Shown: positions 1,964 through 29,108 of the stretch, piece after piece | Layout of the letters: every line of letters starts with the position of its first letter | Position numbering within the stretch: the stretch's first letter is position 1 | Made by a program: the position numbers and the translations under genes | Notes under the pieces: model-generated | Databases searched by the model: none | Seen by the model: only the letters and a program-made list of their open reading frames with translations | What the model was told of the DNA's origin: nothing | Assembly: GCF_054482595.1 (NCBI RefSeq) | Contig: NZ_JBTHVH010000004.1 | From: a plasmid | DNA: 64,000 bases | Strand: one strand, 5' to 3'

Positions 1964-3463
1964 TTAGTTTTCAACTAACTGAACGACGACCAGCCTGCCG
2001 CCTTCCTCCTTTGACAGAACAAACTGAGCGTTATTCGTCAGTTCAATTTTTTCCCCAATGGCAATCTGTCGTTTATCCGGTAATGACATAAGCCCATTTA
2101 TGCCTTCATTTACTAACCACCACTGATCGTTATGGAAAACAAAATACCCAACTCGTTTCCTTTGTGCATCGGTTGTGCGCTCATTTGGCGCAATGAGGCG
2201 ATTCACATGCCACGCATAGATTGACTGCCCGCTCCACACCATCAACCGGTGGTCGTCAGGACGATAACTGCCTTCCTTTCGGGATGAATATAAATTTAGA
2301 ACCGGTAATTTACCCTTGTATGGCGTACCGCAGTAGGGACAAACCGGCTTTGTCTTACCTGAGAAAACGTACCATTTCTGTTCACACGCCTTGTTCTGGC
2401 AGGGCTGTATCAGATCGACTGTTTTAACCAGGGCACTTTCCCACTCATCGGCGGTCGGGCGTTTATTGGCATCGTGTAAGCCATCAATAAAGGCGCGTTC
2501 AAACAAAGGCGTCAAATAAGGGCCCATGATGGTGTAAGGAATTTTCTCCGGGTCAGCCCAGGGCAGTGAAAAGGAGGATAGCTGACTGACTTTGACTGCA
2601 TTGCTTTTGTCTGTCGGATGTTCAATGAAGAGTGCCTTCTCACCCATAGATAAGGTCTCATCACGTACTTCATCCGACATGTCATGTATTTTTCCGCCAC
2701 GTAGCGGATGACGGAAGAACAGATACATGTAGATAAGCACCGACAGCGCATGACGGTCAGTAGAAATGCTTGGCAATACGCGGTTCGGATCCTCTTTGGA
2801 AAGATGGCTGGTTTTCACCACTTCCGGAGCGATAAAATCCGGGGTGCCCACGACGTCGGGAGGATACTTTCCAGGGACAACCAGGCCGTCTACGTCAATG
2901 ATGCAGGCATGTCCCATTTCTGGATCGATAAGCACGTTTTTATAGCTTAGATCGCTGTGACAGAGACCTGCCGCATGCATCCTTCTGACGGCTCTTGTTA
3001 GCAGCAGACAGACCTTGAGATAGGTAAGCGTATTGCCTCGTTCACGTGGGTCGAGAAATTTATTCTGGTTGCTGGCGCTGGCAAACCATTTGCCTTCCTT
3101 TTCACGGCCTTTTATGCCAAGAAAATCATCGTTTTTAGAGCCGTATTTAAAGAAAAAGTAGCTTTTGTAGGTTGGAACCACGATGCCGATTTTATCCCCA
3201 TGCTCAACAACGTGGGTCGGCCAGCAAAACAGGTCCTTCCAGTATTCACCTCCGGACTGGCCAAAAATGTTTTGCCTGTAGCGTCCGGTGATCATATCAA
3301 TCCGATCCCGGGCCTGCTCGTTCTGCGGTTTATGATAAAAAGCGACGACGTATGATTTATCAGGCGAGAAGTAAACATCCTTCATCGAGCCCGAACCAAT
3401 TACCTCGTCAACATACTGGACTGTTTCGCCGTCCTTTGTTTTGCACGTAACAATATTTGCCAT
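1964..3463 (-). CDS. Ser/Thr protein kinase with C-terminal Cys-rich zinc-ribbon region (ter-linked TerY-P type)
   Basis: Kinase motifs in translation: Gly-rich 'IGSGSMKDVY', catalytic loop 'HSDLSYKNVLID', 'IIDVDG' in the DFG position, 'FIAPEV' (APE). C-terminal 'CQNKACEQKW...CPYCG'. ATG at 3463 (M19 of the track ORF) sits 26 bp after the upstream stop. Confidence 0.8.
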   Translation of the reverse strand: MANIVTCKTKDGETVQYVDEVIGSGSMKDVYFSPDKSYVVAFYHKPQNEQARDRIDMITGRYRQNIFGQSGGEYWKDLFCWPTHVVEHGDKIGIVVPTYKSYFFFKYGSKNDDFLGIKGREKEGKWFASASNQNKFLDPRERGNTLTYLKVCLLLTRAVRRMHAAGLCHSDLSYKNVLIDPEMGHACIIDVDGLVVPGKYPPDVVGTPDFIAPEVVKTSHLSKEDPNRVLPSISTDRHALSVLIYMYLFFRHPLRGGKIHDMSDEVRDETLSMGEKALFIEHPTDKSNAVKVSQLSSFSLPWADPEKIPYTIMGPYLTPLFERAFIDGLHDANKRPTADEWESALVKTVDLIQPCQNKACEQKWYVFSGKTKPVCPYCGTPYKGKLPVLNLYSSRKEGSYRPDDHRLMVWSGQSIYAWHVNRLIAPNERTTDAQRKRVGYFVFHNDQWWLVNEGINGLMSLPDKRQIAIGEKIELTNNAQFVLSKEEGGRLVVVQLVEN

Positions 3464-3488
3464 ATTGATCACCGAAGAAGCGTATCCC

Positions 3489-5129
3489 TTACCACAACAC
3501 CGCAATAGTGCGGTCATCGTGGTTCCCTGTGGAGAAAAAGTTAAGCCAGTCGCCTAACCTCTCAGGCGCAATACTGGCGTCTGTAAGGACAGGGATGAGC
3601 TCATCAAGGAGACGGGTCCATTTTTCGTCACTGCGAAGCCCGTTATCTGTCTCAAACAGAGGGTCTGATACGCCATCTGTCATGAGGATCAAGTGAGATA
3701 CATCATTCCATTTACCCACGCTGATGCGGCCGCTAAACGAGGGGTCTGCGATAATGCTCTGGTCAAGAAAGCGGGTTTGTCCTGCGTATTCTCCGCTATC
3801 GGGATTTCCCAGTATCCTGACTTTACCGGAAGGGCTGTATGCACCTATCGCACCATCACCAAGCCAGAATGCAGCCGCAAACAGCTCGTTATCAGTTCGT
3901 AGCGCTACAGTTGCCAGTAGGGTTGTTGAATAGGATTTCACAGGTTGTTCTGCACAAATGGCTTCGTTCTGGATACTGTTGACCGCGAGCGTAGCTGCCT
4001 GTTTAAAATGATGAAGCATGGCGTTTATGGTTGCCTGCTGATCGCTCCCTTCCCACGCCGTGATGTGCTGCTTTAGATGGACGCCTTTCAAACCACTGAG
4101 CTGATTGAAAAGGTAATCGCCAGCCGTTTGGACTGCAATCCGGGAGCCTTCCCGGGAATTTACCGCACTACCGGCCCCGTCTGCGACCAGCATGACAGAC
4201 CATCCTGTTTCCTGGCAGTGGTTGATATAGAAGTCGTCATCTCTGAAGCTCCCGGCATGCTCATGAGATCGTCCCCGGCGACTGGCGGCAGCAATACGTA
4301 TGTCACCCCTGACCAGGCCAGCAGCGTCCAGATGGGACTTAGGGTAGGAAGCGTCTGCTGGTGGCTCTACCACCTTCCACAGGCTTCTCGGATCGGGATT
4401 GACTATAAAAAGCTGTTTTGTTTCGCATTCGTCGTGCGAAGCGCATGACCAGAGTACTGAAAGCTCTATATCGCCGCTTTCGGTGGGTGTACCTGTCAGC
4501 AACTTATGCTCTTTGTCAAAGGTCAGGCCAATGTTCCTGGGAAAGACAACGTCCCTGACAGTAGCCTGCTGGCCCTCATCCAGAACTATAGCAACCGGCG
4601 AAGAGAAACGTTCGCCTGCGCGGGCGTTGGGAATAACTATTTTAGCTCTCGGGGGAACGGCAGGTGGCACAGCTAATCCGGCCCGCTGCTGGCCTGTCGG
4701 TATCTGCCCGGGTTTTAATACCAGGGAAGACAGGTTTTCGTCTTCCCTCTGTGCTGGTTTATCAAATTCGTAATAAGGCATCAGCTTCCAGAACGGAGGA
4801 TGAGGTTCATTTTCTGGCAGGGGTTGCAGTAATGGTGTATCGGTAGCGTCAATGCCCGGGTTATCAGCATCACTTACGACCGTTTGTTGCTGATCGGAAA
4901 GGCTGGATGCTGACGAGGGGGCGATCTCTGCGTCGTTATAACCTTCGCTAACCCGCGCAGATAAACCCTGTGCAAGGCTCTCAATCCGCTCTTTAAGCCG
5001 CATAATCTCTTCAGTAAGGGAAGGGTCGTGCGATAGAAGAAAAAGCCGCTCACCTTCTACAGGGTGGCCCAGCTCAGACAGCACTAAGCGGATAATCTTC
5101 TCTTCAAGTAAAACATTTTGCGACATCAA
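3489..5129 (-). CDS. PP2C-family Ser/Thr protein phosphatase with long N-terminal extension
   Basis: PP2C signatures 'MLVADGAGSAVNSREGS' and 'LILMTDGVSD'. Its stop overlaps the downstream kinase region; its start overlaps the upstream vWA stop (ATGA). Confidence 0.8.
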   Translation of the reverse strand: MMSQNVLLEEKIIRLVLSELGHPVEGERLFLLSHDPSLTEEIMRLKERIESLAQGLSARVSEGYNDAEIAPSSASSLSDQQQTVVSDADNPGIDATDTPLLQPLPENEPHPPFWKLMPYYEFDKPAQREDENLSSLVLKPGQIPTGQQRAGLAVPPAVPPRAKIVIPNARAGERFSSPVAIVLDEGQQATVRDVVFPRNIGLTFDKEHKLLTGTPTESGDIELSVLWSCASHDECETKQLFIVNPDPRSLWKVVEPPADASYPKSHLDAAGLVRGDIRIAAASRRGRSHEHAGSFRDDDFYINHCQETGWSVMLVADGAGSAVNSREGSRIAVQTAGDYLFNQLSGLKGVHLKQHITAWEGSDQQATINAMLHHFKQAATLAVNSIQNEAICAEQPVKSYSTTLLATVALRTDNELFAAAFWLGDGAIGAYSPSGKVRILGNPDSGEYAGQTRFLDQSIIADPSFSGRISVGKWNDVSHLILMTDGVSDPLFETDNGLRSDEKWTRLLDELIPVLTDASIAPERLGDWLNFFSTGNHDDRTIAVLW

Positions 5130-23804: not shown

Positions 23805-24197
23805 ATGGACGATAAAGAGCAGTTTACGAATCTTGTGGCAAAGCATGCCTCCGGACTCACCGAAGAGCAGCTGGCCGGGTACGATGCCTGTTCCCTGGAT
23901 GGTGAATGCGTCACGCCTTCATACGAGGTTTTCCGGGGGTATCGTACCCGCCACACACTGGATGAATTTCTGGAGATGGCCATATCGCTGAATGCCATCC
24001 ACCCGGATGAATATTTAACGGATATGCTGCTGAAGCCTCATGAGGTGATCGGCGCTCTGGCCGATGAAGGCGACCAGCTGAACAACGCCACCCCGGTTTA
24101 TTTCTTTCCGGATACCGGCGTCTATGCAGCGGCCGTTAGTGAAACCCGGGTGCTCGATGCCTGGCTTTGCTGGCCATGCTACCCGGCGAACTGGTAA
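23805..24197 (+). CDS. Hypothetical protein (about 130 aa)
   Basis: ORF 23766..24197; internal Met (MDDKEQ) is the likely start; no family recognised. Confidence 0.35.
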   Translation: MDDKEQFTNLVAKHASGLTEEQLAGYDACSLDGECVTPSYEVFRGYRTRHTLDEFLEMAISLNAIHPDEYLTDMLLKPHEVIGALADEGDQLNNATPVYFFPDTGVYAAAVSETRVLDAWLCWPCYPANW

Positions 24198-24265
24198 CGC
24201 GGCCGTTGGAATTGCACCGGCCGGATACGAATTTAACCGACCCCGTGGCGGGAAGGCTATCAGAG

Positions 24266-24518
24266 TTGCATGTCCTCATCCCTCAAGCCCCCTGCCAGGC
24301 CCCAACGTGCTGTCAGGCTTCGCCTGATTCCCGATCTGCGCCGATACTTCAGCCGATAACTTTTTGTTTTCTTTTTATTTTCTTCCCATTTCCTCAAAAA
24401 TCGCGGGCGGCGTGGACAGGGCACCATTGCCGCATGTGGGGTCTTAATAAGGGCAGGGTGGTCAGTTTTGCTCGATGCCAGGGGTAGGCCCTCCCCTTCA
24501 TGGGATGAGGACATGCAA
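24266..24518. repeat. 17-bp perfect inverted-repeat pair bracketing about 219 bp
   Basis: 'TTGCATGTCCTCATCCC' at about 24266..24282 and its exact reverse complement at about 24502..24518. Confidence 0.6.
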
Positions 24519-24669
24519 GTAAGCTAACTATCTGAAATGACGAAGGTTAATTTGGTGAATGTCGCTTCATATTAATGTTGTGTCACTTATGATCGTATGT
24601 AGCTGGTTGCAAAGAGGAGCGATGAGACAATAAAGTTGTATCGCTAACAAGATTTATGCTGCCACATAG

Positions 24670-24771
24670 TAACAGCCTAAAAGTTGTACGCCCTATTTAA
24701 CAGCTTTTAGGCTGTTAATTTGATATTACAGCTTTTAGGGTGTATGTTTAGGAAACAGCCTGCAAGGTGTA
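24670..24771. promoter_or_regulatory. Array of four operator-like palindromes upstream of hipB
   Basis: Four related sites at about 24670, 24698, 24726 and 24753 (28-bp spacing), consensus ACAGC-N6-8-GTGT(A); the second is a perfect palindrome AACAGC-TTTTAG-GCTGTT. Confidence 0.55.
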
Positions 24772-24797
24772 TCAGAGGAAACTACTGAGGCCAGCTT

Positions 24798-25094
24798 ATG
24801 ATCAATAATGATTACCCGTTAAACACGCTCAACCAGCTGCGTCCCTTGCTCATTGGTTTTCGCAAGGCGAATGGCCTGACGCAAAAAGACCTGTCCGAAA
24901 GGTTAGGCGTCACTCAACAGACATACTCACGTCTGGAAGCCAACCCTGCCAGTGCGAGCATTGAACGGCTATTCAAGGTGTTTTCCATCCTGGGCGTAAA
25001 AATCAGCTTCTCCTCGGCAACCACCTCTTCAGAGAGGAAGCAGACGGAAGAAATGCTTAAATCAAACTCACCTGCACGACAGGAGGATTGGTAA
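24798..25094 (+). CDS. hipB: HipB-like antitoxin (XRE-family HTH)
   Basis: HTH 'LTQKDLSERLGVTQQTYSRLE'; directly upstream of the hipA-like gene. Confidence 0.8.
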   Translation: MINNDYPLNTLNQLRPLLIGFRKANGLTQKDLSERLGVTQQTYSRLEANPASASIERLFKVFSILGVKISFSSATTSSERKQTEEMLKSNSPARQEDW

Positions 25095-25098
25095 CGAT

Positions 25099-26424
25099 AT
25101 GAGCCGGAAACAGCAACGTCTGGTAATTTGGATGAACGGCATCAAAGTCGGGTACTGGGAAAAAAGCAAAGGGGTAGACAGCTTAGAATACCTTCCTGAA
25201 TGGGTTGCTGACGAACAGGGAAGGCCGCTGTCATTGTCCCTTCCTTTTACTCCCGGGAACCAGGTCTGGCGTGGAAATGTGGTACGTGACTATTTTGATA
25301 ATTTACTGCCGGACAGCGAAGGCATACGCAGACGTCTGGCAATGCGTTACAAGGCCGATAGCCTGGAGCCTTTTGATCTGCTGACGGAGCTGGGAAAAGA
25401 CTGCGTGGGCGCGATACAGCTGCTTCATGACGGAGATGAACCCACTGATTTATATTCCGTGAAGTATCACCCGCTTACTGAATCAGAAATTGCGGCAACT
25501 TTGCGTAATACCACGGAGACATTGCTACCGGGCAGGCCAGAAGATAACGACGACTTACGTTTATCTATTGCCGGTGCTCAGGAGAAAACAGCCCTACTGT
25601 GGCATGAAGATCGGTGGTGTATGCCGGAGGGTAATACACCAACGACGCATATATTCAAGCTACCGCTCGGACTTGTGGGGAACATGAAAGCCGACATGAG
25701 CTCGTCGGTTGAAAATGAATGGCTCTGCTCGGTACTTCTCGGCCAGTACGGGCTCCCCGTGGCAAGAACGCAGATTGCTCACTTTGAAGATCAGAAAGCG
25801 CTGGTGGTAGAACGTTTTGACCGAAAATGGTCAGGAGACGGACAATGGATCATTCGTTTACCCCAGGAGGATATGTGTCAGGCCCTGGGCGTTTCGCCAT
25901 TACGAAAATATCAGGCGGACGGCGGGCCAGGTATATCGGAAATTATGGAGGTTCTGAGTAATTCAGACCGTGCTGAGCGTGACAAAGCGCAGTTTTTTAT
26001 GACGCAGATAATTTTCTGGATGATGGCCGCAACAGATGGCCACGCTAAAAATTTCAGTATTTCTATTGGGCCACAGGGACGTTATCACCTTACACCAAAC
26101 TATGATGTGTTGTCGGCATGGCCGGTGATCGGTCATGGGAACAATCAGATATCCTGGCAGAAGTGCAAATTGGCGATGGCCGTACGTGGCAGTAGCAACT
26201 ATTACCAGATATATCGAATACAACGACGCCACTGGATCAGGCATGGTGAGATAACCGGCCTGAGTAAACAGCAGACAGAGGCGATGATAGAGGAAATCAT
26301 CGCCAGAACCCCAGGTGTCATTGAACGTGTTAGCGGGCTTCTTCCGGACCAGTTCCCCCAGCAGCTTGCGGAAAGTATTTTTGATGGAATGAGGCAGCAA
26401 TGCAGGCGCCTGGCTGAGAAATGA
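25099..26424 (+). CDS. hipA: HipA-family toxin kinase
   Basis: 441 aa; N-terminal region aligns by eye with E. coli HipA ('VGYW..YLPEWVA..RPLSLSLP..DNLLPDS..FDLL..G.DCVGA'); AGGAGGA RBS. Confidence 0.85.
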   Translation: MSRKQQRLVIWMNGIKVGYWEKSKGVDSLEYLPEWVADEQGRPLSLSLPFTPGNQVWRGNVVRDYFDNLLPDSEGIRRRLAMRYKADSLEPFDLLTELGKDCVGAIQLLHDGDEPTDLYSVKYHPLTESEIAATLRNTTETLLPGRPEDNDDLRLSIAGAQEKTALLWHEDRWCMPEGNTPTTHIFKLPLGLVGNMKADMSSSVENEWLCSVLLGQYGLPVARTQIAHFEDQKALVVERFDRKWSGDGQWIIRLPQEDMCQALGVSPLRKYQADGGPGISEIMEVLSNSDRAERDKAQFFMTQIIFWMMAATDGHAKNFSISIGPQGRYHLTPNYDVLSAWPVIGHGNNQISWQKCKLAMAVRGSSNYYQIYRIQRRHWIRHGEITGLSKQQTEAMIEEIIARTPGVIERVSGLLPDQFPQQLAESIFDGMRQQCRRLAEK

Positions 26425-26484
26425 CAGCCGCAATTTATAGTGTGCATGTTTTCAGAATAGCTGATGTAAGCGTGAGGATTCAGT

Positions 26485-26691
26485 ATGACTGAAGAACAAA
26501 AAAGAATAGAGCGGGCTATTGAGTTGGCTTGTCGTTACGGCGGAACCGATGAAATGCATCATCTGCAATGGGTCGTGGATCAGATGGTAAGAGAACTTGC
26601 TGGAGAACGTTATGCACAGATTGTAGCTGATGCCACCAGCGGAGAAGATGGGCCTGATACTTACAAATGGAGTGTTGGGATCGCGCCTTAA
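26485..26691 (+). CDS. Hypothetical small protein (68 aa)
   Basis: ORF only. Confidence 0.3.
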   Translation: MTEEQKRIERAIELACRYGGTDEMHHLQWVVDQMVRELAGERYAQIVADATSGEDGPDTYKWSVGIAP

Positions 26692-26792
26692 CAGCTGTCG
26701 GTCTGGGGGTGAAAACGTATTCTTCATTCAGCGAATTCCCAGGCTTCACATTAAGACTAAAGCGGCGGCCGCAGTAACGTAAGAGAAAATAA

Positions 26793-27203
26793 ATGGCTAT
26801 TTTAGCAATCATTGCAGTTATCGCCCTGGGTGGGTACGCCTACGGATTTATTAAAACCCGTGAGCTGAGCGCTTTGCGTAAAGAAATGAAACTATACGTG
26901 GATCGCATGGAAGCGGCGGAGCTGGACTTACACGCAATCAGAAGTGTAGCGGAGCACCGGTTGCACGGTGCAGGTAAACAGTTTGCCGACCTTTACAGCC
27001 GTATCGACGGTGCAACTGTGACGCTGACACCCGAAGATCAGCTGTTACTGGCAACGATGCCATTTAATATTCAGGATGTAGAAGACATCGTAAACGAGCG
27101 CGGTCCAAAGACAATTAGCGGCCGTCCATTCTGGGAAGTTGAGCCAGGCCCGCATGATTATGAATATGGCCCGCAATATCCGTATTTCCCAGACCAGCGC
27201 TAG
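26793..27203 (+). CDS. Hypothetical membrane-anchored protein (136 aa)
   Basis: ORF with an N-terminal hydrophobic segment. Confidence 0.4.
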   Translation: MAILAIIAVIALGGYAYGFIKTRELSALRKEMKLYVDRMEAAELDLHAIRSVAEHRLHGAGKQFADLYSRIDGATVTLTPEDQLLLATMPFNIQDVEDIVNERGPKTISGRPFWEVEPGPHDYEYGPQYPYFPDQR

Positions 27204-27461: not shown

Positions 27462-28281
27462 GGCACTGTTGCAAAGTTAGCGATGAGGCAGCCTTTTGTC
27501 TTATTCAAAGGCCTTACATTTCAAAAACTCTGCTTACCAGGCGCATTTCGCCCAGGGGATCACCATAATAAAATGCTGAGGCCTGGCCTTTGCGTAGTGC
27601 ACGCATCACCTCAATACCTTTGATGGTGGCGTAAGCCGTCTTCATGGATTTAAATCCCAGCGTGGCGCCGATTATCCGTTTCAGTTTGCCATGATCGCAT
27701 TCAATCACGTTGTTCCGGTACTTAATCTGTCGGTGTTCAACGTCAGACGGGCACCGGCCTTCGCGTTTGAGCAGAGCAAGCGCGCGACCATAGGCGGGCG
27801 CTTTATCCGTGTTGATGAATCGCGGGATCTGCCACTTCTTCACGTTGTTGAGGATTTTACCCAGAAACCGGTATGCAGCTTTGCTGTTACGACGGGAGGA
27901 GAGATAAAAATCGACAGTGCGGCCCCGGCTGTCGACGGCCCGGTACAGATACGCCCAGCGGCCATTGACCTTCACGTAGGTTTCATCCATGTGCCACGGG
28001 CAAAGATCGGAAGGGTTACGCCAGTACCAGCGCAGCCGTTTTTCCATTTCAGGCGCATAACGCTGAACCCAGCGGTAAATCGTGGAGTGATCGACATTCA
28101 CTCCGCGTTCAGCCAGCATCTCCTGCAGCTCACGGTAACTGATGCCGTATTTGCAGTACCAGCGTACGGCCCACAGAATGATGTCACGCTGAAAATGCCG
28201 GCCTTTGAATGGGTTCATGTGCAGCTCCATCAGCAAAAGGGGATGATAAGTTTATCACCACCGACTATTTGCAACAGTGCC
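27462..28281 (-). mobile_element. IS26 copy 1 (820 bp)
   Basis: 14-bp terminal inverted repeats GGCACTGTTGCAAA at both ends; internal transposase identical in all five copies; no target-site duplication. Confidence 0.95.
27514..28218 (-). CDS. tnpA: IS26 transposase (234 aa)
   Basis: 'MNPFKGRHFQRDIILWAVRWYCKYGISYRELQEM...'; the track ORF includes a 6-codon upstream extension. Confidence 0.95.
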   Translation of the reverse strand: MNPFKGRHFQRDIILWAVRWYCKYGISYRELQEMLAERGVNVDHSTIYRWVQRYAPEMEKRLRWYWRNPSDLCPWHMDETYVKVNGRWAYLYRAVDSRGRTVDFYLSSRRNSKAAYRFLGKILNNVKKWQIPRFINTDKAPAYGRALALLKREGRCPSDVEHRQIKYRNNVIECDHGKLKRIIGATLGFKSMKTAYATIKGIEVMRALRKGQASAFYYGDPLGEMRLVSRVFEM

Positions 28282-28304: not shown

Positions 28305-29108
28305 ATGTCATCAGCGGTGGAGTGCAATGTCGTGCAATACGAATGGCGAAAAGCCGAGCTCATCGGTCAGCTTCTCAACCTTGGGGTTACCCCCGGCGGT
28401 GTGCTGCTGGTCCACAGCTCCTTCCGTAGCGTCCGGCCCCTCGAAGATGGGCCACTTGGACTGATCGAGGCCCTGCGTGCTGCGCTGGGTCCGGGAGGGA
28501 CGCTCGTCATGCCCTCGTGGTCAGGTCTGGACGACGAGCCGTTCGATCCTGCCACGTCGCCCGTTACACCGGACCTTGGAGTTGTCTCTGACACATTCTG
28601 GCGCCTGCCAAATGTAAAGCGCAGCGCCCATCCATTTGCCTTTGCGGCAGCGGGGCCACAGGCAGAGCAGATCATCTCTGATCCATTGCCCCTGCCACCT
28701 CACTCGCCTGCAAGCCCGGTCGCCCGTGTCCATGAACTCGATGGGCAGGTACTTCTCCTCGGCGTGGGACACGATGCCAACACGACGCTGCATCTTGCCG
28801 AGTTGATGGCAAAGGTTCCCTATGGGGTGCCGAGACACTGCACCATTCTTCAGGATGGCAAGTTGGTACGCGTCGATTATCTCGAGAATGACCACTGCTG
28901 TGAGCGCTTTGCCTTGGCGGACAGGTGGCTCAAGGAGAAGAGCCTTCAGAAGGAAGGTCCAGTCGGTCATGCCTTTGCTCGGTTGATCCGCTCCCGCGAC
29001 ATTGTGGCGACAGCCCTGGGTCAACTGGGCCGAGATCCGTTGATCTTCCTGCATCCGCCAGAGGCGGGATGCGAAGAATGCGATGCCGCTCGCCAGTCGA
29101 TTGGCTGA
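28305..29108 (+). CDS. aac(3)-IV: Aminoglycoside 3-N-acetyltransferase AAC(3)-IV (apramycin/gentamicin resistance)
   Basis: Translation matches the recalled AAC(3)-IV sequence ('YEWRKAELIGQLLNLGVTPGGVLLVHSSFRSV...'); starts 23 bp after the IS26 end. Confidence 0.85.
   Translation: MSSAVECNVVQYEWRKAELIGQLLNLGVTPGGVLLVHSSFRSVRPLEDGPLGLIEALRAALGPGGTLVMPSWSGLDDEPFDPATSPVTPDLGVVSDTFWRLPNVKRSAHPFAFAAAGPQAEQIISDPLPLPPHSPASPVARVHELDGQVLLLGVGHDANTTLHLAELMAKVPYGVPRHCTILQDGKLVRVDYLENDHCCERFALADRWLKEKSLQKEGPVGHAFARLIRSRDIVATALGQLGRDPLIFLHPPEAGCEECDAARQSIG

What the first reader, a model, noticed from the sequence alone, without database searches (positions are those of the whole stretch)
24670..26424. 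hipBA module with four regularly spaced operator palindromes
Four related half-palindromic sites (consensus ACAGC-N6-8-GTGT) sit at 28-bp intervals just upstream of hipB. This mirrors the four-operator layout of chromosomal hipBA but with a different consensus than TATCC-N8-GGATA, implying a HipB with altered specificity. A plasmid-borne HipA kinase next to a kinase-regulated ter locus is a notable juxtaposition.
Basis: partly seen in the sequence, partly recalled or inferred. Interest (0 to 1): 0.5.

Follow-up and report, generated by a model that had tools for sequence, protein, structure and literature searches.

The report
Plasmid hipBA toxin-antitoxin with its own operators
This is the hipBA toxin-antitoxin operon of the IncHI2 resistance-plasmid backbone; four evenly spaced palindromes in front of it are very probably the sites where its own HipB repressor binds, so it is a real but ordinary member of a well-known system.

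Summary
Four sites matching ACAGC-N6-GNTGT lie at 24672, 24700, 24728 and 24755, spaced 28/28/27 bp. They are the only such matches in the 64 kb window (0.5 expected by chance). With their flanking bases they fit an 18-bp palindrome, TACAGC-N6-GCTGTA.

Downstream are hipB (24798-25094) and hipA (25099-26424). HipB has an HTH_3 domain and a C-terminal Trp. HipA has the Couple_hipA and HipA_C domains, matches E. coli HipA at E about 1e-100, and keeps all catalytic residues.

The same array, with a period of about 27 bp, precedes hipB in most of 74 divergent loci from Gamma- and Betaproteobacteria. No shuffled or internal control reached even two phased sites. A residue of the HipB recognition helix co-varies with a half-site base: T or S goes with G, and A goes with A, in at least five separate lineages. 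That is strong indirect evidence that HipB is the binder.

E. coli K-12 uses TATCC-N8-GGATA at 28/39/28 bp with the same promoter topology, so altered specificity is supported. The module is in 1195 PLSDB plasmids, where it is already annotated.

The suggested functional link to the ter locus is not supported. Operator variants among HipB homologues are already published for Shewanella and Caulobacter. I rate this a new member of a known kind, of modest interest.

The parts
24671..24688 (.). Operator O1, AACAGCCTAAAAGTTGTA (core ACAGC-N6-GTTGT)
   Evidence: The equivalent site is present in homologous loci.
24699..24716 (.). Operator O2, AACAGCTTTTAGGCTGTT. The core is a perfect palindrome, and the arms extend to TTAACAGC/GCTGTTAA.
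   Evidence: It was also flagged as terminator-like, but it has only 3 G-C pairs, and what is conserved is DNA half-sites rather than an RNA stem.
24720..24725 (+). Predicted -35 hexamer TTGATA, in the O2-O3 linker
   Evidence: 9 of 12 matches, 17-nt spacer. This is a consensus match only; the transcription start is not mapped.
24727..24744 (.). Operator O3, TACAGCTTTTAGGGTGTA. It fills the promoter spacer between -35 and -10.
   Evidence: (best match to the 18-bp consensus, 1 mismatch).
24743..24748 (+). Predicted -10 hexamer TATGTT, overlapping the right end of O3
   Evidence: The same register is seen in Citrobacter, Rahnella and Cronobacter relatives. It is only suggestive across the whole family.
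24754..24771 (.). Operator O4, AACAGCCTGCAAGGTGTA, covering the predicted transcription start
   Evidence: Its position relative to the -10 is inferred.
24798..25094 (+). hipB: a 98-aa antitoxin/repressor with an HTH_3 domain (residues 22-70), recognition helix T39-Q-Q-T-Y-S-R45, a low-complexity tail and a C-terminal Trp98
   Evidence: HTH_3, E 7e-15; best PDB hits are E. coli HipB, E 1e-6; best NCBIfam hit is HipB at 41.5 bits, below the equivalog cutoff of 79; alignment.
25099..26424 (+). hipA: a 441-aa Ser/Thr kinase toxin, starting 4 nt after the hipB stop, with an AGGAGG ribosome-binding site inside the 3' end of hipB
   Evidence: HipA_C 4.6e-51 and Couple_hipA 1.5e-20. E. coli HipA structures at E about 1e-100. 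S156, K187, D313, N318 and D336 are invariant (E. coli S150, K181, D309, N314, D332).

Best explanation
This is a self-repressed type II toxin-antitoxin operon of the HipBA family, carried on the IncHI2 plasmid backbone. Dimers of the HTH antitoxin HipB, alone or as HipA2HipB2 complexes, bind four 18-bp palindromes (consensus TACAGC-N6-GCTGTA) set 27-28 bp apart. O3 lies between the predicted -35 and -10 and O4 lies on the predicted transcription start, so occupancy would shut off hipBA transcription. HipA is an intact Ser/Thr kinase. By homology to E. coli HipA it would phosphorylate an aminoacyl-tRNA synthetase (GltX in E. coli) and arrest growth once the labile HipB is degraded. On a plasmid this gives post-segregational killing, i.e. 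plasmid maintenance. The operator sequence is specific to this HipB clade and differs from the TATCC-N8-GGATA of the E. coli chromosomal hipBA, so the two systems in one cell should not share repressors. Shown here: the sites, their phasing, their conservation, the protein-DNA covariation, the intact domains and catalytic residues, and the plasmid distribution. Inferred: actual HipB binding, the promoter position, the kinase target, toxicity and the role in plasmid maintenance.
For: (1) Four sites cluster in 100 bp and are the only matches in 64 kb.
(2) Domains and residues: HipB has HTH_3. HipA has Couple_hipA and HipA_C. It aligns over its full length to E. coli HipA structures at E about 1e-100. 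The autophosphorylation Ser, ATP-binding Lys, catalytic Asp and Mg-binding Asp are invariant, as are the equivalents of the hipA7 positions G22 and D291.
(3) Conservation: the same array precedes hipB in Rahnella, Cronobacter, Ralstonia, Citrobacter, Cedecea, Yersinia and many Burkholderiales, where HipA is 50-79% identical.
(4) Controls: 59 of 74 loci have at least 3 phased sites and 67 of 74 at least 2. This compares with 0 of 1480 dinucleotide shuffles and 0 of 74 hipA-internal controls. Spacings were 27 bp in 138 cases, 28 in 10, 54 in 7, 26 in 3 and 29 in 1.
(5) Covariation: with QQT in the helix, half-site position 4 is G in 74% of half-sites. With QQS it is G in 56% and A in 34%. With QQA it is A in 93% (41 of 44). 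At locus level Fisher p = 1.6e-5. The QQA loci fall in at least five separate lineages by HipA nearest neighbour.
(6) Other helices: HipBs with SQNR, SQSR or TRQA helices carry other palindromes at the same period of about 26-27 bp.
(7) Promoter: E. coli K-12 has the same topology, with -35 in the O2-O3 gap, O3 in the spacer and O4 at the start site, and 10-bp gaps within operator pairs (PMC4150777; PMC3920265).
(8) Allele comparison: the 97.9% IncHI2 allele differs at 8 positions in the 150-bp promoter region, none of them in a half-site.
(9) Published precedent: a plasmid hipBA from K. michiganensis (IncA/C) was shown experimentally to be toxic, neutralised by HipB and plasmid-stabilising (PMC11487325).
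(10) Distribution: the module is in 1195 PLSDB plasmids and in 284 of 5426 complete E. coli genomes, at 286 plasmid places and 4 chromosomal places.
Against: Nothing here shows binding, repression, toxicity or plasmid stabilisation for this particular module. The promoter is a 9-of-12 consensus match, and the T-rich linkers make -10-like hexamers common, so the family-wide promoter register is only suggestive: the third site gave the best promoter in 13 of 22 four-site loci. HipB scores below the curated cutoff for the E. coli HipB equivalog. The kinase target is inferred from a homologue that is 41% identical over the multiple alignment. The allele comparison in point 8 is weak on its own: the chance that 8 changes all miss the 40 half-site positions is about 0.08.
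Confidence: 0.85

Rival explanations
1. The operon is the same, but its main biological role is not plasmid addiction. It might instead provide host persistence or stress tolerance, or abortive-infection-type phage defence, with plasmid maintenance only a side effect.
For: Most homologues with the same operator array are chromosomal and sit in unrelated neighbourhoods. Chromosomal hipBA in E. coli is linked to persistence (PMC6581861).
Against: In E. coli the module is almost exclusively plasmid-borne, at 286 plasmid places against 4 chromosomal. It is conserved in both IncHI2 lineages. A different plasmid hipBA was shown to stabilise its plasmid (PMC11487325). The two roles do not exclude each other.
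Confidence: 0.2
2. The four repeats are binding sites for some other plasmid protein (iterons, a partition centromere or another backbone regulator), and merely lie next to hipB.
For: Regularly spaced repeats on large plasmids are often iterons or centromeres. No binding data exist for these sites.
Against: The array travels with hipB into chromosomes of many genera whose neighbours are unrelated to plasmids. A half-site base co-varies with a HipB recognition-helix residue. There are no further copies elsewhere in the 64 kb window.
Confidence: 0.03
3. The repeats act as RNA or terminator hairpins, or are chance low-complexity repeats.
For: O2 was flagged as terminator-like, with a 9-bp stem followed by a T-rich tail.
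Against: That stem has only 3 G-C pairs. O1, O3 and O4 are imperfect palindromes. What is conserved across loci is the half-sites and the 27-bp phasing, not stem complementarity. There is no Rfam match. Chance is excluded.
Confidence: 0.02
4. HipA is functionally coupled to the neighbouring ter (tellurite resistance) locus.
For: The ter genes lie about 3 kb upstream in this plasmid lineage.
Against: In the other IncHI2 lineage about 11 kb, including a helicase, a serine protease and other genes, separate ter from hipBA. Homologous hipBA loci have no ter neighbours. The small ORFs between ter and hipBA are on the opposite strand.
Confidence: 0.03

Closest known systems
Escherichia coli K-12 chromosomal hipBA (b1507/b1508), with operators O1-O4
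   Same: The gene order is hipB then hipA. There are four 18-bp palindromic operators upstream. The gaps within operator pairs are 10 bp (28 bp centre to centre). The -35 lies in the O2-O3 gap, O3 lies in the promoter spacer and O4 lies at the start site. The HipA domains, catalytic residues and hipA7 positions are conserved. HipB has a Cro-like HTH and a C-terminal Trp.
   Different: The half-site is TACAGC-N6-GCTGTA rather than TATCC-N8-GGATA, and there is no E. coli-type site in this promoter. The O2-O3 distance is 28 bp rather than 39 bp, so the array is uniformly phased. The recognition helix differs at 5 of 9 positions. HipB is only about 35% identical by eye in the alignment, and scores below the NCBIfam equivalog cutoff. 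HipA is 41% identical. There is a 4-nt gap between the genes instead of a 1-nt overlap. This module is plasmid-borne.
Shewanella oneidensis MR-1 HipAB (SO0705/SO0706)
   Same: It also has four palindromic operators with an N6 spacer and a consensus different from that of E. coli. It is published proof that HipB homologues have diverged operator specificity (PMC4150777).
   Different: The Shewanella half-site is GTGTA-N6-TACAC, which is absent from the window. Its operators are separated by 34 bp, and the fourth lies inside hipB. HipA is only distantly related (E 3e-21).
Plasmid-borne hipBA of Klebsiella michiganensis pPSKoxy4_2 (IncA/C)
   Same: It is a plasmid hipBA shown experimentally to be toxic, neutralised by HipB expressed from its native promoter, and plasmid-stabilising (PMC11487325).
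   Different: It belongs to a different HipBA cluster (that paper's Cluster 3, closest to Xenorhabdus). The paper describes no operators. The paper's clusters 1 and 2, which are closest to Burkholderia pseudomallei HipBA, may be nearer to the IncHI2 type, but this was not tested here.
Caulobacter crescentus hipBA1 and hipBA2
   Same: The authors noted series of inverted repeats in the promoters, at intervals consistent with the E. coli higher-order HipA/HipB/operator complex (PMC7029023).
   Different: There the two paralogous operons share identical repeats, and cross-regulation was proposed. Here the plasmid and chromosomal operators differ, which suggests insulation.

Membership tests
HipBA type II toxin-antitoxin module | hipB lies immediately upstream of hipA on the same strand, in an operon-like arrangement | tested here: met
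   hipB is at 24798-25094 and hipA at 25099-26424, with a 4-nt gap and an AGGAGG ribosome-binding site inside the hipB 3' end.
HipBA type II toxin-antitoxin module | The toxin has the HipA N-terminal (Couple_hipA) domain and the HipA_C kinase domain | tested here: met
   PF13657 at 1.5e-20 and PF07804 at 4.6e-51. TIGR03071 scores 93.5 bits against a cutoff of 27.8.
HipBA type II toxin-antitoxin module | Kinase catalytic and regulatory residues are present (E. coli S150, K181, D309, N314, D332) | tested here: met
   S156, K187, D313, N318 and D336 are invariant in the alignment with E. coli HipA.
HipBA type II toxin-antitoxin module | The antitoxin is a Cro/XRE-type HTH protein with a C-terminal tail ending in Trp | tested here: met
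   HTH_3 at 7e-15. The best PDB hits are E. coli HipB. The terminal W is conserved in nearly all of the 80 homologous loci.
HipBA type II toxin-antitoxin module | Several palindromic operators overlap the hipBA promoter | tested here: met
   Four sites. A promoter-like pair brackets O3. The array is conserved in homologues.
HipBA type II toxin-antitoxin module | HipB or HipBA binds the operators and represses transcription | not testable with these tools
   Support is indirect only: covariation between the recognition helix and a half-site base.
HipBA type II toxin-antitoxin module | HipA is growth-inhibitory and is neutralised by its cognate HipB | not testable with these tools
   Shown for other HipBA modules (PMC11487325; E. 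coli), but not for this one.
HipBA type II toxin-antitoxin module | HipA phosphorylates an aminoacyl-tRNA synthetase (GltX Ser239 in E. coli) | not testable with these tools
   Inferred from homology (PMC6581861).
E. coli K-12 HipB equivalog (NF007271) with TATCC-N8-GGATA operators | The protein reaches the curated equivalog score | tested here: not met
   41.5 bits against a cutoff of 79.
E. coli K-12 HipB equivalog (NF007271) with TATCC-N8-GGATA operators | TATCC-N8-GGATA operators are present in the promoter | tested here: not met
   No match with 2 or fewer mismatches between 24014 and 26818.
Shewanella-type HipAB | GTGTA-N6-TACAC operators | tested here: not met
   No matches with 1 or fewer mismatches in the window.

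The most novel reading that the evidence does not exclude
The array of three or four operators at a period of about 27 bp is an invariant scaffold of the whole HipB family, while the half-site is re-programmed by one to a few recognition-helix residues. An example is the residue equivalent to T42: T or S goes with G, and A goes with A, at half-site position 4, and the switch occurred at least five times independently. This would produce mutually insulated HipBA pairs. It would explain how the IncHI2 module can act as an addiction system in E. coli hosts that already carry a chromosomal hipBA, without repressor cross-talk or anti-addiction. As far as the searched literature shows, this recognition rule and this operator class have not been described.
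Probability: 0.4. Interest if true: 0.5.

Novelty: new member of a known kind. Interest (0 to 1): 0.3.

Why it matters
IncHI2 plasmids are major carriers of mcr, ESBL and carbapenemase genes, and their persistence depends partly on addiction modules. Knowing the exact operator array (TACAGC-N6-GCTGTA, four copies) of their hipBA operon gives a defined target for curing or derepression experiments. About 5% of complete E. coli genomes carry this module on a plasmid. Where the host also has a chromosomal hipBA like that of K-12, the two modules would meet in one cell, which makes a natural test of whether co-resident HipBA systems are insulated from each other. The helix-base covariation across the family is a small but usable piece of a recognition code for Cro-like HipB repressors. 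None of this changes the general picture of how HipBA works.

Tried and rejected
- **Rfam.** A scan of 24000-27000 at E up to 1 found nothing.
- **Further HipB sites in the window.** None have fewer than 3 mismatches, so there is no sign of a wider plasmid regulon.
- **Other operator types.** E. coli-type and Shewanella-type operators are absent from the promoter.
- **Promoter register across the family.** The systematic test was inconclusive, because T-rich linkers give -10-like hexamers after most sites.
- **Primary papers.** The E. coli HipB-DNA papers (PMC2764309, PMC7502270) are not held. Base-contact residues could therefore not be quoted, and the higher-order HipA dimer is cited only through secondary descriptions.
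- **Literature on this operator class.** Searches for an ACAGC-type HipB operator found only primer sequences and no operator description. The library is incomplete, so this is absence of evidence only.
- **ter linkage.** Examined and rejected.
- **Terminator reading of O2.** Rejected.
- **Not used.** Structure prediction and the large protein searches were not run, because sequence-level evidence was already decisive.
Full report
**What is in the sequence**

Upstream of an ORF at 24798 the + strand reads ...TAACAGCCTAAAAGTTGTAC...TTAACAGCTTTTAGGCTGTTAA...TTACAGCTTTTAGGGTGTAT...AAACAGCCTGCAAGGTGTAT....
- The pattern ACAGC-N6-GNTGT matches at 24672, 24700, 24728 and 24755 and nowhere else in 64 kb. 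The chance expectation is 0.5 matches, and 0 of 100 shuffles reached the observed count.
- Spacing is 28/28/27 bp. The repeat finder independently reports the direct and inverted relationships among the four sites.
- With the flanking bases the sites fit an 18-bp palindrome, TACAGC-N6-GCTGTA, with 2, 2, 1 and 2 mismatches out of 12 specified bases. Every other match in the window has 3 mismatches, and the number of those is close to chance.
Its consensus, 'ACAGC-N6-8-GTGT', is a blurred version of a true palindrome with a fixed N6 spacer.

**The genes**

hipB (24798-25094) encodes 98 aa.
- It has an HTH_3 domain at E 7e-15.
- Its best matches among solved structures are E. coli HipB chains (E 1.4e-6).
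- Its best NCBIfam family is HipB, but at 41.5 bits against an equivalog cutoff of 79.
- It ends in Trp, like E. coli HipB and nearly all homologues surveyed. [quoted passage not shown]

hipA (25099-26424) encodes 441 aa and starts 4 nt after the hipB stop.
- It has Couple_hipA and HipA_C domains.
- It aligns end to end with E. coli HipA structures at E about 1e-100.
- In a five-sequence alignment the equivalents of E. coli S150, K181, D309, N314 and D332 are invariant. So are the equivalents of G22 and D291, the hipA7 positions (PMC6581861).

**Origin**

The 2.3 kb around the module is 100% identical to the E. coli IncHI2A plasmid pTB-nb4.
- It is found in 1195 PLSDB plasmids of Escherichia, Salmonella, Enterobacter, Klebsiella and others, in two allele groups (at least 99%, and about 98%).
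- Among 5426 complete E. coli genomes, 284 carry it, at 286 plasmid places and 4 chromosomal places.
- It is annotated there as 'HipA family toxin' plus 'helix-turn-helix transcriptional regulator'. hipBA is routinely listed as an IncHI2 backbone feature in the literature.

**Are the palindromes HipB operators?**

I collected homologous loci in two ways: eight from plasmids by tblastn with HipB, and eighty from one genome per species by a HipA profile, with HipA identity of 50-79%.

*Conservation of the array.* The same array is present in front of hipB in Rahnella, Cronobacter, Citrobacter, Cedecea, Yersinia (six copies), Ralstonia and a large set of Burkholderiales and other Beta- and Gammaproteobacteria.
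- Among 74 non-redundant loci whose HipB recognition helix contains QQ, 59 have at least 3 phased sites and 67 have at least 2.
- None of 1480 dinucleotide-preserving shuffles, and none of 74 equal-length controls taken from inside hipA, reaches 2.
- The spacing is strikingly constant: 27 bp in 138 cases, 28 in 10, 54 in 7, 26 in 3 and 29 in 1.
- The pooled consensus is T-ACAGC-CTATAG-GCTGT-A.

*Protein-DNA covariation.* I re-identified sites using only the ACA/TGT cores and the phasing, so that the test position was unbiased. The base at half-site position 4 then tracks the residue that follows QQ in the recognition helix.

| Helix | Half-site position 4 |
|---|---|
| QQT | G in 74% |
| QQS | G in 56%, A in 34% |
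| QQA | A in 93% (41 of 44) |

- At locus level, 0 of 7 QQA loci have a majority G, against 53 of 63 QQT/QQS loci (Fisher p = 1.6e-5).
- By HipA nearest neighbours the seven QQA loci belong to at least five separate lineages, so this is not a single inherited event.

*Other helices.* HipBs with quite different helices lack ACAGC sites but carry other palindromes at the same 26-27 bp period.

| Locus | Helix | Palindrome |
|---|---|---|
| Pigmentiphaga | SQNR | TATCG-N7-CGATA, four copies |
| Variovorax | SQSR | TACC-N9-GGTA |
| Xanthomonas | TRQA | GCAA-N8-TTGC |

Together these results make HipB by far the most likely binder.

**Comparison with the model system**

In E. coli K-12, TATCC-N8-GGATA occurs at -134, -106, -67 and -39 from the hipB ATG, a spacing of 28/39/28. 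TTGACT lies in the O2-O3 gap and TATAAT between O3 and O4.
- The published description is four operators separated by 10, 21 and 10 bp and bound cooperatively by HipB, with HipA as co-repressor (PMC4150777; PMC3920265).
- Here the 18-bp sites are separated by 10, 10 and 9 bp.
- The only promoter-like pair in the region is TTGATA (24720), a 17-nt spacer, then TATGTT (24743-48). This puts the -35 in the O2-O3 linker, O3 in the spacer and O4 on the predicted start site.
- The topology is thus the same. The outer size of the operator is the same (18 bp, TA...TA). The pair spacing is the same. The long O2-O3 gap of E. coli is shortened by 11 bp, about one helical turn.
- Close enterobacterial relatives show -35-like and -10-like hexamers in the same register. 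The family-wide test of that register is only suggestive, because the linkers are T-rich.
- E. coli HipA molecules on neighbouring operators are reported to dimerise through the N-terminal subdomain, where hipA7 maps (as summarised in PMC6581861 and PMC7029023). Those positions are conserved here. A uniform 27-28 bp array is compatible with the same higher-order complex, but that is inference.

**Mechanism proposed**

HipB2 or HipA2HipB2 occupies O1-O4 and represses the promoter. HipB is presumably labile, as in E. coli, where Lon degrades it (PMC3376134, listed; PMC8262856). After plasmid loss, or on HipB depletion, free HipA phosphorylates its target and arrests growth. The target is GltX in E. 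coli and is inferred here. Plasmid stabilisation by a hipBA module has been demonstrated for a different plasmid variant (PMC11487325). For the IncHI2 module it remains an inference.

**What is not supported**

The proposed significance of the ter neighbourhood does not hold up.
- In this lineage the last ter-associated gene ends about 2.9 kb upstream, with small opposite-strand ORFs in between.
- In the other IncHI2 lineage about 11 kb of unrelated genes intervene.
- Homologous hipBA loci elsewhere have unrelated neighbours.
- The homology between the two IncHI2 lineages begins at window 24649, about 23 bp upstream of O1. The operator array is therefore the left edge of the conserved module.

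**Novelty**

The kind of system is fully known.
- HipB homologues with four operators of a different consensus are published for Shewanella (GTGTA-N6-TACAC).
- Phased inverted repeats were noted for Caulobacter hipBA1 and hipBA2.
- I found no description of the TACAGC-N6-GCTGTA operator class, of its 27-bp phasing across Beta- and Gammaproteobacteria, or of the helix-base covariation. The searchable library is incomplete, however.
- I therefore file the locus as a new, sequence-characterised member of a known kind, with modest interest. Its most useful consequence is a testable prediction of insulation between the plasmid hipBA and the E. coli chromosomal hipBA.

Noticed in passing
window 24400-24650, compared with L002/L092: Homology between the two IncHI2 hipBA alleles starts at window 24649, about 23 bp upstream of O1. 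The other lineage carries about 3.3 kb of extra genes there (a trypsin-like protease, a membrane protein and a hypothetical protein), between the conserved 393-nt ORF and hipB. This is an indel breakpoint that abuts the operator array.
   Followed up: partly
L003 (IncHI1B/IncP), L004 (IncHI1A) and L006 (IncU), all about 1900-2300: These loci have solitary hipB homologues, 57-66% identical to this HipB, with no hipA annotated downstream and only two ACAGC-type palindromes 27-28 bp apart. They may be orphan repressors or remnants of hipBA modules.
   Followed up: no
window 24798-24803; L001 8402: RefSeq annotates hipB from the second codon (ATC, window 24801), giving 97 aa. An ATG one codon upstream, with a GAGG 7 nt before it, is the obvious start.
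   Followed up: no
window 27514-28236 (- strand) and 28305-29108 (+ strand): An IS6-family (IS26-like) transposase is followed by an AAC(3)-IV aminoglycoside acetyltransferase (483 bits against a cutoff of 420). This marks the start of a resistance region 1.1 kb downstream of hipA. The window diverges here from the otherwise identical plasmid pTB-nb4.
   Followed up: partly
window 26485-26691 and 26793-27203: Two small ORFs (68 and 136 aa) directly downstream of hipA are conserved in both IncHI2 lineages. They have no NCBIfam match and are absent from chromosomal hipBA loci.
   Followed up: partly
L016-L067 (Burkholderiales hipB ORFs): Many HipB homologues carry long Ala/Pro/Lys-rich extensions of 40-100 aa between the HTH domain and the conserved terminal ...(K/R)E(D/N)W. 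The tail length is highly variable while the terminal Trp is kept.
   Followed up: no
L015 (Yersinia thracica), about 740-900: Six phased ACAGC-type sites at exact 27-bp intervals, instead of the usual three or four.
   Followed up: no
L008 (Ralstonia solanacearum megaplasmid), 2269-3620: hipA is split into two overlapping frames (an apparent frameshift), while hipB and its four operators are intact.
   Followed up: no
L091 (Caballeronia sordidicola), about 120-250 of the printed upstream region: Its HipB has an SQSR-type helix. The roughly 17-bp repeats (TATCTGTCACACGAATA) occur in alternating orientations rather than as simple palindromes.
   Followed up: no
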